Shown: positions 57,675 through 60,689, numbered from the stretch's first letter. The stretch is DNA of 60,689 bases from Chthoniobacterales bacterium (GCA_038240495.1 JBBSDS010000001.1:1-60689), one strand, 5' to 3'. Notes: generated by a model from the sequence alone, not told the origin. Made by a program: numbers and translations.

Positions 57675-59150
57675 TCATGGCGCGACGACGAAGGATCGCG
57701 TTCGTCCGCGGCAGATGAAAAGCAGCGCGCGTTCATCCTGCGAAACGGCTTGGACGAGGCGTTCGTACTCGGCGACCGAGCCGACCGGTCGGTGGTTAAT
57801 TTCCTCAATGACATCGCCAACGCGGAGTTTTTCGGCGGCGGGTGCGTCCGGCTGAATCTGCGTGACGACCACACCTTTGACATCCCCCGGCAAAGCGTCG
57901 CGGACCGCTCCGGGGATTTCTCCGACTTCCAAGCCGGTGAAGGCGTTGGAAGTGGCGACGGGCGTTTTGGGTGTCTGCGGAAGCTTGGCCGGACCAAGGC
58001 TCGCGGGTGTTTCAACGATCTCGGTGGTGAATGACTGCTCCTGGCCGTTTCGCACGACGCCGATTTGCACCTGAGCATTGAGCTCGGTTTCTGCGACGCG
58101 GCTGCGGAGGGAGAGAATGTCTGTCACCGGCCGGTCATTGAAGCGGCGGATGACGTCGCGCGGTTTCAGCCCCGCCTTTTCGGCAGGCGAGCCCGGCAGC
58201 ACTTCCGTGACGACCGCGCCCCCCGCGTCGCGCAAGCCAAGTTCGCGCGCGATGTCCGGTGTGAGATTGACCATCGTCACGCCGAGGTAGCCGCGGATAA
58301 TGCGACCGTTTTTCAAAACGCTCTCGAGGGCGCGGCGCGCGACATTGGCCGGGATTGCGAAGCTGATGCCGAGCCACGAACCTTCTTCCGAGTTGGAAAA
58401 GATGGCGCTGTTGATGCCGATGATTTCGCCCCGCAAGTTGAGGAGCGGTCCGCCGGAGTTGCCCTGATTTACAGCCGCGTCGGTCTGGAGAAATTCGACG
58501 CCGCTGTCGGCCATTGCCCGGCGGCCTTTGGCGCTGATGATTCCCTGCGTCACCGTTTCCTGGAGACCGAAAGGATTGCCGACGGCGAAGACCATCTGGC
58601 CGACGCGGACATGATCGCTGTCGCCGAGTGGCAGCGGCTCGATGTTTCGGGCTTCGATTTTCAAAACGGCGATGTCGGTCTGCTCGTCGGTGCCAATGAG
58701 CTGCGCGGGCTCGACGCGACCGTCGGTGAGTTGGACCTCGATCTTATCCATGTTCGCGATGACGTGATGGTTGGTGAGGATGTGGCCTTCTTTTGAGACG
58801 ATGACGCCCGAGCCGAGCGAGGTCTGCACACGCTCTTGCGGCGAACGCGGACGGTGATTGCGGAAGAAAAACTCAAACGGGTCGATGACCGCGGAGCCCG
58901 GTATTTGCACGCGTCGCGAAGTGGTGATGCTCACGACTGACGGGATGACGGCATCGACGAGCCGCGTGTATTCGCTGTCGAGCGCGGCGAGCACCTGCAC
59001 GTCTTTCGGGTCGATTTTCGGTCCCTCGGCCGGGGTGTACTTTTCGGCTGTGCGGTGCTCGCTGTGCAGTTGGGAATTCAGTCGCTGCCAGCGGAAGACG
59101 CCAAAGGCGATGAGCGCGGCGACGAGGAAAATGAAAAGCGAGCGACGCAT
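57675..59150 (-). CDS. degP: HtrA/DegP (Do) serine endoprotease with two PDZ domains
   Basis: GSGVI, TNHHV, TDIAV, QTDAAVNQGNSGGPL, PDZ (GYLGV; GSPAEKAGL). Confidence 0.92.
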   Translation of the reverse strand: MRRSLFIFLVAALIAFGVFRWQRLNSQLHSEHRTAEKYTPAEGPKIDPKDVQVLAALDSEYTRLVDAVIPSVVSITTSRRVQIPGSAVIDPFEFFFRNHRPRSPQERVQTSLGSGVIVSKEGHILTNHHVIANMDKIEVQLTDGRVEPAQLIGTDEQTDIAVLKIEARNIEPLPLGDSDHVRVGQMVFAVGNPFGLQETVTQGIISAKGRRAMADSGVEFLQTDAAVNQGNSGGPLLNLRGEIIGINSAIFSNSEEGSWLGISFAIPANVARRALESVLKNGRIIRGYLGVTMVNLTPDIARELGLRDAGGAVVTEVLPGSPAEKAGLKPRDVIRRFNDRPVTDILSLRSRVAETELNAQVQIGVVRNGQEQSFTTEIVETPASLGPAKLPQTPKTPVATSNAFTGLEVGEIPGAVRDALPGDVKGVVVTQIQPDAPAAEKLRVGDVIEEINHRPVGSVAEYERLVQAVSQDERALLFICRGRTRSFVVAP

Positions 59151-59157
59151 GAAAGAA

Positions 59158-60689
59158 TTAGCTGACTTGTGAAAGCATCAGTTTGCGACTTTCGGCAAGC
59201 ACGCGGCGATAGGGCTGGTTCTCCGGTCGAGCGAGTTGCGGGTCGCGTTCAAAGAGCAGAAAAGCGGCGTTGCGGGCGAGACGCATCAGTTCGTGATCGG
59301 CGAGCAGGTTGCCAATTTTGAGCGGCGCGAGACCGCTTTGCGCCGTGCCGAGAATGTCGCCGGGACCGCGCAGGCGGAGATCCGCTTCGGCAATCTCGAA
59401 GCCATCGCTGGTCTGTTCGAGGATCCGGAGTTTTTCCTCGGAGTCTTTCTCGGACTTCGGTGAGCGGAGCAGGATGCAGTAGCTTTTGTGTTTGCCACGC
59501 CCGATGCGCCCGCGGAGTTGGTGGAGTTGGGCAAGGCCGAAGCGCTCGGCGTTTTCGATGAGCATGAGGCTGGCGTTGGGCACATCGATGCCGACTTCGA
59601 TGACTGTGGTGGCAATCAACGCCTTGGTTTCGCCGCGACGGAACCGCTCCATGATCGCGTTCTTTTCCTCCGGTGGAATGCGGCCGTGGAGCAGCGCGCA
59701 GGGCATCGGCGCGAGGAGTTCCTGCCACTTCGCAAACTCATTCGCCGCGGCCTTGGCTTCGAGTTTTTCGCTTTCGTCGATGAGCGGATAAACGATGTAG
59801 GCCTGCCGCCCCGCTTCGAGATGCTCGCGAATGAATTTCACGGCCTCGGGCAGTTTCGCCGCTTCGCGAACGGCAGTGACGATTTTGCCGCGATGCGCGG
59901 GCAACTCGTCGAGCGTGCTCACATCGAGATCGCCGTAGAGCGTCATGGTGAGGGTGCGAGGGATGGGCGTCGCGGTCATGACGAGCACATCCGGCGCGAC
60001 GCCCTGCCCGCGCAACCGCGCCCGCTGCATGACGCCGAATTTGTGCTGCTCGTCGATGACCGCGAGCCCGAGCCGGGTGAAGCCCGCGCCTTCATAAAGC
60101 AGAGCATGCGTGCCGACGAGGAGGTGAGGCTCGGTGTCGGGGAGCAGCACCGATGGAGTGTCCGGGTGGAGCACGCCGCTGGCGTGCCGCTCGCGGCGGC
60201 CCGCCGCGAGCACTTCGTGCGCTGGCGCTTGTTTCTCGATGCGAAGACTCGGAAACCAGCACCAAGGATAATCTTCGCTTTCATCGACCACTTTGGAGTT
60301 CCACGGATTGGCCAAAATGTAGTGGTACTTTTCTTCGAGATCGCGGTCGGAACGCGTGAAACGATCGAACCATTCCTTTTGCCAAAGCGCGCCCGACTCG
60401 TCTTCCAATTTATTGATTTCATGCGCCGTCCACGATTTGATCGTGTGCATGATTTCCGTGAGGGAAAAGAAAACGGCGGAACCATCGTCCGCAGTTTCCT
60501 TGATCGATGGCTGGATGAGCAGATGGACGTGATCCGGCATCACGCAGGCCGCAAAGAGTTCGTAGCGCCGATCCTTCCAATGCAGGATTGATCCTAAAAC
60601 AATATCGCGCGCCGCTGGTGTGAGCCGGCGTGGATCGATGGTGTTGAAGGCGATCGCGTAAATCGCCCACGGGTGTTCGAAATGGGGGA
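59158..60689 (-). CDS. recG: ATP-dependent DNA helicase RecG (C-terminal part) in frame with a RAYT domain; 5' end outside the window
   Basis: GTHALL, IDEQHKFGV, MTATPIPRTL, QAYIVYPLI, TTVIEVGIDVPNA, AERFGLAQLHQLRGRIGRG, DGFEIAEADLRLRGPG. The frame is open to the window end. Confidence 0.93.
   Translation of the reverse strand, partial: PHFEHPWAIYAIAFNTIDPRRLTPAARDIVLGSILHWKDRRYELFAACVMPDHVHLLIQPSIKETADDGSAVFFSLTEIMHTIKSWTAHEINKLEDESGALWQKEWFDRFTRSDRDLEEKYHYILANPWNSKVVDESEDYPWCWFPSLRIEKQAPAHEVLAAGRRERHASGVLHPDTPSVLLPDTEPHLLVGTHALLYEGAGFTRLGLAVIDEQHKFGVMQRARLRGQGVAPDVLVMTATPIPRTLTMTLYGDLDVSTLDELPAHRGKIVTAVREAAKLPEAVKFIREHLEAGRQAYIVYPLIDESEKLEAKAAANEFAKWQELLAPMPCALLHGRIPPEEKNAIMERFRRGETKALIATTVIEVGIDVPNASLMLIENAERFGLAQLHQLRGRIGRGKHKSYCILLRSPKSEKDSEEKLRILEQTSDGFEIAEADLRLRGPGDILGTAQSGLAPLKIGNLLADHELMRLARNAAFLLFERDPQLARPENQPYRRVLAESRKLMLSQVS
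60161..60211. repeat. REP hairpin flanking the RAYT domain, translated within the recG frame
   Basis: tccgggtggagcacgc is identical to 10229-10244; hairpins gcacgcc-gct-ggcgtgc and gctcgcggcgg-c-ccgccgcgagc. Confidence 0.82.
60230..60689 (-). mobile_element. REP-associated tyrosine transposase (RAYT/TnpA-REP, Y1 HUH) domain
   Basis: PHFEHPWAIYAIAF...AACVMPDHVHLL (HUH)...IKSWTA...LWQKEWFDRFTR...YILANP...DYPW. Confidence 0.88.

What the first reader, a model, noticed from the sequence alone, without database searches (positions are those of the whole stretch)
59158..60689. RAYT (HUH transposase) domain and its REP fused in frame into the RecG helicase core
Seen: one uninterrupted minus-strand frame from the window edge reads PHFEHPWAIYAIAF...VMPDHVHLL...IKSWTA...LWQKEWFDRF...YILANP...DYPW. 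It then runs through a translated REP hairpin (EVLAAGRRERHASGVLHPDT) into RecG motif Ib (LLVGTHALL) and all later RecG motifs. Established: these are the HUH and catalytic-Tyr signatures of REP-associated tyrosine transposases, and RecG normally has its wedge domain and Walker A upstream of GTHAL. Inference: a REP-flanked RAYT unit sits inside recG between helicase motifs Ia and Ib without breaking the frame. It could be a selfish element hiding in a DNA-repair gene as a tolerated protein insert (no intein-like His-Asn/Cys-Ser-Thr junction is visible), an insert removed at DNA or RNA level, or a functional fusion placing an ssDNA-hairpin nickase on a fork-remodelling helicase.
Basis: partly seen in the sequence, partly recalled or inferred. 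Interest (0 to 1): 0.92.

Follow-up and report, generated by a model that had tools for sequence, protein, structure and literature searches.

The report
Hairpin transposase embedded in RecG helicase
A complete hairpin-flanked transposase unit with no start or stop codon of its own sits in frame inside this bacterium's DNA-repair helicase gene recG and is likely made as an extra protein domain that still spreads its DNA hairpins; relatives show such units swapped, lost and placed in other housekeeping genes, which would be a way for a mobile element to live inside proteins without splicing out.

Summary
Observation confirmed. The open frame 59158-60687 (-) holds a RAYT domain (HUH and Tyr intact), a translated inverted REP and the C-terminal half of RecG. 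The window edge is a contig end. The N-terminal half, with Walker A and the 5' REP, lies on contig C536, which abuts in frame (5-nt overlap, no bridging read). In 13 of 28 same-genus genomes recG carries such a cassette (12 intact); 14 lack it.

The ~0.6 kb REP-RAYT-REP unit has no start, stop, intein or intron signature and is under purifying selection (dN/dS ~0.14). Two genomes with 99%-identical recG flanks carry different cassettes, exchanged at the REP feet. All 7 genomes with this cassette type hold 34-81 matching REPs, against 1 of 40 others. Related cassettes sit in alaS, thrS, metH, priA, pfl, valS and others; stand-alone copies also exist.

Best reading: a mobile REP-RAYT unit living as an unspliced protein domain, not a RecG-specific fusion. 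Expression and activity are untested. I found no paper describing it. This scan has reported the same arrangement on other DNA (28 findings, at least 23 genomes, recG included).

The parts
60247..60687 (-). RAYT (Y1 HUH transposase) domain, in frame in recG; its first ~8 residues and the 5' REP lie on contig C536 (2182-2264)
   Evidence: PF01797 27.5 bits, NF047646 73-77 bits, 4ER8 alignment, C536 sequence
60523..60531 (-). HUH motif (His-Val-His, residues 53-55 of the frame)
   Evidence: sequence; aligned to the HUH of 4ER8
60319..60321 (-). predicted catalytic tyrosine (Y123 of the frame, YILANP)
   Evidence: sequence; aligned to YIYINP of 4ER8
60162..60211 (+). 3' REP of the cassette: CCGG, GTGG foot, two hairpins (60171-60187, 60189-60211); inverted relative to the coding strand and translated as a linker
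   Evidence: DNA folding, family scan; linker predicted disordered in the homologue model
59158..60129 (-). C-terminal half of RecG: motif Ib (GTHAL, 60100-60114), motif II (DEQH, 60043-60054), motifs III-VI, C-terminal domain, stop
   Evidence: TIGR00643 339-629; PF00271, PF19833
10229..10358 (.). a RAYT-less inverted pair (REPIN) of the same REP family elsewhere in the window
   Evidence: blastn, REP scans

Best explanation
A ~0.6 kb REP-RAYT-inverted-REP cassette sits in frame in the variable loop of recG between helicase motifs Ia and Ib and is likely translated, unspliced, as an internal domain of RecG, from where the transposase likely copies its REP doublets (REPINs) around the genome and would, rarely, move or swap the whole cassette into other REPIN-tolerant protein loops. 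Shown: the anatomy, the lack of a start, stop or splice signature, purifying selection, the patchy presence, the exchange of cassette types at the REP feet, and the match between cassette type and genome-wide REP type. Inferred: the cassette borrows promoter, start and stop from the host gene; its two translated REPs act as flexible linkers, so both proteins fold; the monomeric HUH domain nicks single-stranded REPs next to the tetranucleotide foot (GTGG would select CC, by analogy with PMC8266576) and strand transfer replaces one REP-bounded interior by another. In-frame REPINs in tolerant loops would be the landing pads, which would explain why insertions keep the frame. RecG is a host, not a partner.
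For: 1) Open frame through both REPs. The 5' foot is in the same frame in all 23 inserted alleles where it was found, and foot-to-foot length is 579-654 nt. 0 of 47 cassettes have an in-frame ATG in the 25 codons before the core; 10 have scattered GTG/TTG. 2) RAYT dN/dS median 0.14 (26 pairs, 0.05-0.24; 2 saturated pairs dropped), host 0.14 (28 pairs); HUH and Tyr motifs are found together in 47 of 50 domains. 3) G008 and G028: 12 differences in 900 nt upstream and 5 in 540 nt downstream, none within 114 nt and 263 nt of the loop, but different cassettes (40-67% identical windows) that switch within a few bases of the CCGG feet. 4) The RAYT tree groups by REP type, mixing host genes and genomes. 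Presence or absence changes at least 12 times on a 54-row recG tree. 5) Type-A REP counts are 34-81 in all 7 type-A cassette genomes; 1 of 40 others reaches 30; 6 independent pairs, sign test p about 0.03. 6) At two of three loci compared, G008 holds a type-A REPIN where G028 holds a type-C REPIN at the same site. 7) This genome's alaS has a RAYT-less REPIN in the loop where P0003, P0006, P0008 and P0009 hold a full cassette. 8) AlphaFold model of homologue P0011: RecG domains and RAYT (400-540) confident, REP linkers 350-399 and 542-574 below pLDDT 50; top matches are RecG 1GM5. 9) TnpA-REP is a monomer (PMC3479197, passages), which suits life as a domain.
Against: There is no expression, proteomic or biochemical evidence. 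The join of C536 and C1 is not bridged. G010 has 40 type-A REPs but no RAYT of this clade. Two replicate tests in other host genes were weaker. Type D carriers have 2, 7, 9 and 30 REPs (others 0-6). Type E carriers have 3-66, while G018 (38) and G150 (23) are high without a known cassette of that type. The threshold of 30 was chosen after seeing the counts. Stand-alone copies of the same clade exist, so embedding is not obligatory, and such copies could be the mobile source. The G008/G028 3' breakpoint is not clean: about 20 nt of loop differ beyond the foot. Host recombination seeded at the similar REP ends could give the same picture. The AU test of type-A monophyly on the host tree did not finish.
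Confidence: 0.62

Rival explanations
1. The RAYT is translated inside RecG and maintains its REPINs, but the cassette never moves by its own catalysis. It entered the loop long ago, and host homologous recombination and gene transfer, seeded in the similar REP ends and flanks, swap and delete it.
For: Classical RAYTs are described as non-jumping (10.1101/2021.07.10.451892, passages). REP types share CCGGG..AGC ends that could seed recombination. Breakpoints scatter by a few to ~20 nt. Scar alleles keep only part of a REP (G010, G023, G024). One cassette per host site, with no identical copies within a genome.
Against: No co-converted flank: no differences within 114 nt upstream and 263 nt downstream in G008/G028. 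Entry into many unrelated genes, some at two sites, needs a non-homologous step. RAYT-less REPINs swap at the same CCGG feet.
Confidence: 0.2
2. The cassette is removed after transcription or translation (RNA processing guided by the paired REPs, or proteolysis in the linkers), so mature RecG is normal.
For: The inverted REPs could pair in the mRNA, and the linkers are predicted disordered.
Against: No Rfam match at E<=0.1 in four loci. No Hint domain among Pfam hits. Junction residues vary freely. The strict frame conservation would be unnecessary if RNA were spliced. Proteolysis would leave RecG cut within its first helicase domain.
Confidence: 0.09
3. A domesticated fusion: the nickase serves RecG at stalled forks or hairpins.
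For: The insert is conserved under purifying selection. RecG and PriA, both fork proteins (recalled), are frequent hosts.
Against: 14 of 28 same-genus genomes lack it, often the sister of a carrier. Subtypes are interchangeable. alaS is the commonest host (28 of 66 embedded loci) and has no use for a DNA nickase.
Confidence: 0.07
4. Assembly chimera or a dead, truncated recG.
For: The window ends at a contig break inside the cassette, and the genome is a fragmented bin (572 contigs).
Against: The matching N-half is on C536. Full-length alleles lie on single contigs in many genomes. A mismatch-free piece bridges RAYT to motif Ib.
Confidence: 0.02

Closest known systems
REPtrons: RAYT / TnpA-REP with REPs and REPINs (E. 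coli TnpA-REP, PDB 4ER8; class 2 of Quentin et al. 2018, PMC6006769, motifs nearest subclass 2.7: DHVH, WQ, YI..NP)
   Same: Y1 HUH domain, inverted flanking REPs with a GT[AG]G-type foot, multicopy REP doublets whose type follows the RAYT type.
   Different: Described RAYTs are separate extragenic genes, single-site, vertically inherited and non-jumping (PMC5581495 and 10.1101/2021.07.10.451892, passages). Here the unit has no start or stop, both REPs are translated, it lies inside housekeeping genes, and it is swapped and relocated. Quentin et al. discarded long proteins as 'gene fusions or annotation errors'. The subclass assignment is by motif only.
Intragenic REPs and REP dimers (Di Nocera et al. 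2013, PMC3733652; Rickettsia RPEs as cited there)
   Same: In-frame palindromic inserts in repair genes, helicases and tRNA synthetases, commonest in the verrucomicrobium Opitutus terrae (section 15); the same is seen here.
   Different: Those inserts encode 7-82 residues and no enzyme; here the doublet carries the whole transposase (~200 residues). recG, alanyl and transposase do not occur in that paper's four held supplements.
Inteins with homing endonucleases (recalled)
   Same: A mobile nuclease gene inside conserved replication, repair and metabolic genes, using host expression signals, with occupied and empty alleles at fixed sites.
   Different: No splicing domain or conserved junction residues; it sits in a variable surface loop instead of a conserved motif; the enzyme is a single-strand HUH transposase recognising its own ends.
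IS200/IS605 TnpA and IStrons (recalled; dimer contrast from PMC3479197)
   Same: Y1 chemistry on hairpin ends with a guide tetranucleotide.
   Different: Scores far below the IS200 model cut-off, no TnpB, no intron, no identical multicopy elements.

Membership tests
RAYT / TnpA-REP (REPtron) | HUH motif and single catalytic Tyr in a Y1 domain | tested here: met
   PF01797 above cut-off; HVH and Y123 align with 4ER8; both motifs found in 47 of 50 relatives
RAYT / TnpA-REP (REPtron) | Score above the curated RAYT model cut-off (NF047646, 80 bits) | tested here: inconclusive
   73.3-77.3 bits; complete copies in G008 and G014 also score 76; IS200 model only 18-21 of 55
RAYT / TnpA-REP (REPtron) | Flanked by inverted REPs with a tetranucleotide foot and hairpin | tested here: met
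   GTGG-footed double hairpins on C536 and at 60162-60211; GT[AG]G feet described in PMC6006769
RAYT / TnpA-REP (REPtron) | Cognate REPs multicopy in the genome, as doublets | tested here: met
   61 hits against 0 in shuffles; 76 REPs and 28 inverted pairs with a looser pattern
RAYT / TnpA-REP (REPtron) | Separate extragenic gene with its own start and stop | tested here: not met
   in frame inside recG; no ATG before the core in 47 of 47 cassettes. It works like a REPtron but is not a canonical one
RAYT / TnpA-REP (REPtron) | Fixed locus, vertical inheritance, tree congruent with host | tested here: not met
   different cassettes in 99%-identical recG; RAYT tree mixes host genes
RAYT / TnpA-REP (REPtron) | REP-dependent single-strand cleavage and strand transfer | not testable with these tools
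   indirect only: REP counts follow cassette type
RecG | Wedge domain plus SF2 motifs and RecG C-terminal domain; TIGR00643 | tested here: met
   halves cover model positions 2-337 and 339-629 (each half is below the whole-protein cut-off); only recG found in this 80%-complete genome; homologue model matches 1GM5 (E 7e-38; Z 35.1, rmsd 8.2, 603 aligned)
RecG | Fork-reversal and branch-migration activity | not testable with these tools
   host part under purifying selection
Intein | Hint domain; N-terminal Cys/Ser and C-terminal His-Asn followed by Cys/Ser/Thr | tested here: not met
   no Hint family among Pfam hits; junction residues unconserved across 50 cassettes
IStron / self-splicing intron | Group I or II intron RNA around the transposase | tested here: not met
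   0 Rfam matches at E<=0.1 in L003, L009, L010, L012
IS200/IS605 | TnpA model score and identical multicopy elements | tested here: not met
   NF033573 17.8-20.9 bits, cut-off 55; one copy of this clade in the genome

The most novel reading that the evidence does not exclude
A class of mobile element that lives as an unspliced protein domain. It is a start-less, stop-less, self-mobile REP-RAYT-REP unit whose translated ends are its own linkers, which seeds protein loops with miniature in-frame copies of its ends and then uses them as landing pads, hopping between RecG, tRNA synthetases, PriA, MetH and other core enzymes of Verrucomicrobiota.
Probability: 0.45. Interest if true: 0.92.

Novelty: new variant of a known kind. 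Interest (0 to 1): 0.8.

Why it matters
Mobile elements that enter important genes are thought to need splicing (introns, inteins) to be tolerated; this one appears to be tolerated as a folded domain. It also bears on an open question in REP biology. RAYTs are described as non-jumping, and their persistence is taken to imply a host benefit. Here there are natural occupied, empty, scarred and swapped alleles with sharp breakpoints, and REP populations that follow the cassette type, so RAYT mobility and REPIN turnover become directly testable. It explains a set of puzzling database annotations ('RecG-like helicase/REP element-mobilizing transposase RayT') that an earlier survey discarded, and it maps loops in core enzymes that accept a 200-residue domain.

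Tried and rejected
Structure prediction of P0011 without an alignment failed (pLDDT 34). Fold searches with the whole model listed only helicases, so the RAYT fold was not tested structurally. The run search listed no RNA holder, which says nothing about expression; small-share runs X2, X6 and X7 hold only relatives' fragments. No piece bridges C536 and C1. An nhmmer REP scan gave 0 hits because my two-sequence model was misaligned; a structure-aware scan replaced it. Two dN/dS scripts crashed. The careful host tree and the AU test did not finish, so the quick tree is used. One of four searches for the orthologous site of a G008 REPIN found nothing. The search of 50% cluster representatives could not be run. 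My interim idea that this clade is obligately embedded was rejected: stand-alone ~217 aa members exist. The labels 'scar' were set by loop length only; for G030, G033, G035 and G036 they are probably just longer native loops. Higher dS in RAYT than in host in all scored pairs may reflect codon bias and is not used as proof of transfer. No complex prediction was run, since no binding claim is made.

Full report
1. What is in the window. The minus-strand frame 59158-60687 is open for 509 codons from the window edge. Its first 147 residues are a Y1 HUH transposase domain of the RAYT type: PF01797 27.5 bits, above cut-off; NF047646 73-77 bits, just under its cut-off of 80, against 18-21 of 55 for the IS200 model; the only PDB sequence hit is E. 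coli TnpA-REP, weak but with HUH and Tyr in register. Residues 187-475 are RecG from motif Ib onward. Between them lies a GC-rich double hairpin at 60162-60211 with a GTGG foot. It belongs to a family with 61 hits in the genome and 0 in two shuffles; a looser pattern finds 76 REPs and 28 inverted pairs.

2. The missing half. The window is the entire contig C1 of a 572-contig, 80%-complete genome. The rest of recG is on C536: TIGR00643 positions 2-337, then a REP in the opposite orientation, then the first RAYT residues at the contig end. The two ends overlap by 5 nt in frame and meet at residue 394 of the full-length homologue P0011. In the probable source run, both sides are covered by mismatch-free pieces of similar depth (7.6-10), one bridging RAYT to motif Ib, but none bridges the two contigs. 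The join is therefore inferred for this genome. It is directly seen on single contigs in relatives. No other recG was found; the hit on C52 is an 1151-aa frame that I take for Mfd (label recalled).

3. Occupied, empty and swapped alleles. Of 28 same-genus genomes, 13 carry a cassette in this loop (12 intact, G018 frameshifted), 14 do not, and G009 is unresolved. The motif Ia-Ib distance is 38-79 residues without and 234-274 with the cassette. On a quick tree of host residues (54 rows, 26 with insert; 9 rows were picked because they hit the RAYT, so the sample is enriched), presence changes at least 12 times. At least three REP-RAYT types occupy the same loop. G008 (type A, as in the window) and G028 (type C) differ at 12 of 900 nt upstream and 5 of 540 nt downstream, with no difference within 114 and 263 nt of the loop, yet their cassettes are 40-67% alike per window. 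The switch falls within a few bases of the CCGG at the 5' foot and within about 20 nt of it at the 3' side. G010, G023 and G024 keep REP-like remnants only.

4. Other hosts and stand-alone copies. In 121 genomes of the family, 62 matches (E<=1e-20) occur in 45 genomes; 60 lie in stop-free frames of 463 aa or more. Of 22 non-recG frames scanned, 13 are alaS, 7 thrS, 1 priA and 1 unassigned. A search for longer proteins gave 1238 hits; the best 120 are RecG, AlaRS, MetH, pyruvate formate-lyase and a D-serine-deaminase-like enzyme, and ten carry two RAYT domains by score. Among 79 named loci, nearly all Verrucomicrobiota, 66 are embedded (28 alaS, 14 recG, 6 thrS, 18 others), 7 are open only upstream and 6 are short. 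Eight frames were scanned and gave metH (2), priA, pfl, valS, Ham1, an HHH_6 protein and one blank; the remaining metH and priA labels rest on shared flanking peptides. Across the phylum the clade was found in 6 of 401 genomes, all in long frames. Stand-alone members exist: 157 near-length hits, many about 217 aa. Of the 120 listed, 77 start with Met and show REP-derived peptides at both ends by pattern, so even these mostly start outside the 5' REP and read through both. They nest among embedded copies in the tree, which groups by REP type, not by host gene. This genome also has a more distant RAYT cassette in frame in carB.

5. Is it translated and active? Indirect evidence says likely. The 5' foot is in the same frame in all 23 alleles where it was located. 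0 of 47 cassettes have an ATG in the 25 codons before the core. dN/dS is 0.14 for both RAYT (26 pairs; 2 saturated pairs dropped) and host (28 pairs), and HUH and Tyr motifs are found together in 47 of 50 domains. An AlphaFold model of P0011 (66-row alignment, pLDDT 75, pTM 0.58) has confident RecG and RAYT domains joined by low-confidence REP-encoded linkers and matches RecG 1GM5 first. No intein domain or RNA family was found. All 7 genomes with a type-A cassette have 34-81 type-A REPs; of 40 others, G010 has 40, G028 has 12 and the rest 6 or fewer. Six independent pairs on starred branches go the same way (median p 0.03; threshold chosen after seeing the counts). Against this: G010 has no RAYT of the clade. 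Two pre-stated replicates were weaker: type D carriers 2, 7, 9, 30 against 0-6; type E carriers 3, 6, 8, 14, 26, 66, with G018 at 38 and G150 at 23 unexplained. Type C counts are broad.

6. How it likely moves. RAYT-less doublets behave like the cassette. At two of three loci that could be compared, G008 has a type-A doublet exactly where G028 has a type-C doublet, both apparently within coding sequence; at the third both share a type-A doublet absent from G017 and G026. In this genome, doublets lie in frame in alaS, a U32 peptidase and two other Pfam-identified genes. The alaS doublet is in the loop where four database proteins hold a full cassette. 36 of 55 type-A REPs have CC just before the GG-GTGG foot. 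In a Marinomonas RAYT, changing the foot to GTGG moved cleavage to CC (PMC8266576, passages), and E. coli TnpA-REP is a monomer able to do strand transfer (PMC3479197, passages). I infer that the cassette is an autonomous REPIN that exchanges with resident doublets at their feet, so only loops already shown to be tolerant, and already in the right frame, are colonised. Host recombination between similar REP ends remains the main rival.

7. Relation to what is known. Known: REPtrons; in-frame REPs in repair genes and synthetases, notably in Opitutus (PMC3733652: passages, sections 15 and 16, supplement search); in-frame REPs inside tnpA-REP itself (PMC6006769, passages). RAYTs are described as extragenic, vertically inherited and non-jumping (PMC5581495 and 10.1101/2021.07.10.451892, passages). 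Seven full-text searches found no description of whole RAYT cassettes inside housekeeping genes; the one paper holding both RecG and RAYT has RecG only in a reference title. The library lacks most subscription papers, and I did not read the supplements of PMC6006769, whose length figure may list such fusions. JGI's automatic names already show the architecture. This scan's own notes report it in 28 findings from at least 23 genomes, recG included; those are unchecked AI notes, consulted after I had stated the same reading, and are not counted as support.

8. Verdict. The feature is real. The protein domain is a RAYT-type Y1 transposase; the element works like a REPtron but fails two defining features (separate gene, fixed vertical locus), so I file it as a new variant of a known kind. 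The swapped-allele pair, the REP-count contrast and the doublet replacement are the strongest results here. Expression and catalysis are untested. Interest 0.8.

Noticed in passing
G000:C4:20280-24404 (L162): carB (carbamoyl-phosphate synthase large chain, 1375 aa) carries a second, more distant RAYT with its own GTAG-footed REPs, in frame; G014 has a similar insert in carB (L115).
   Followed up: partly
G000:C13, C82, C289, C443 (L157, L158, L161, L160): RAYT-less REP doublets in frame in alaS, a DUF1549/DUF1553 cytochrome protein, a DUF7133 protein and a U32 peptidase; the U32 site seems to be the one that holds other doublet types in G008, G028 and G017.
   Followed up: partly
G000:C484:1033-1398, C7:14987-15355, C14:7097-7462: Three short, apparently stand-alone RAYTs, each with its own flanking repeats, so several REP-RAYT systems coexist in this genome.
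   Followed up: no
G010 (L070, L105, L109, L114): 40 type-A REPs but no RAYT of this clade; recG keeps only a decayed type-C 5' REP. Another RAYT appears fused to the C-terminus of a dehydratase-like protein (L114; label from recalled motifs).
   Followed up: partly
L113 (G012:C53): A distant RAYT with REPs in frame inside a 917-aa frame of a different host protein, not identified.
   Followed up: no
G000 REP doublets: In most doublets one end is preceded by CC and the other is not, which may mark a donor end and a target end.
   Followed up: no
L189, L206, L217, L220, L238; G018:C17 (L080): Host frames break in or just after the cassette. Several are large-contig assemblies, so these may be sequencing indels rather than dead genes.
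   Followed up: no
window 57675-59150 (-): The gene right after recG looks like an HtrA/DegP protease with PDZ domains (motifs recalled, no HMM run).
   Followed up: no
L212, L237, L243: Three records titled Bifidobacterium or Bifidobacteriaceae carry verrucomicrobial-type alaS or priA cassettes; likely mislabelled bins.
   Followed up: no
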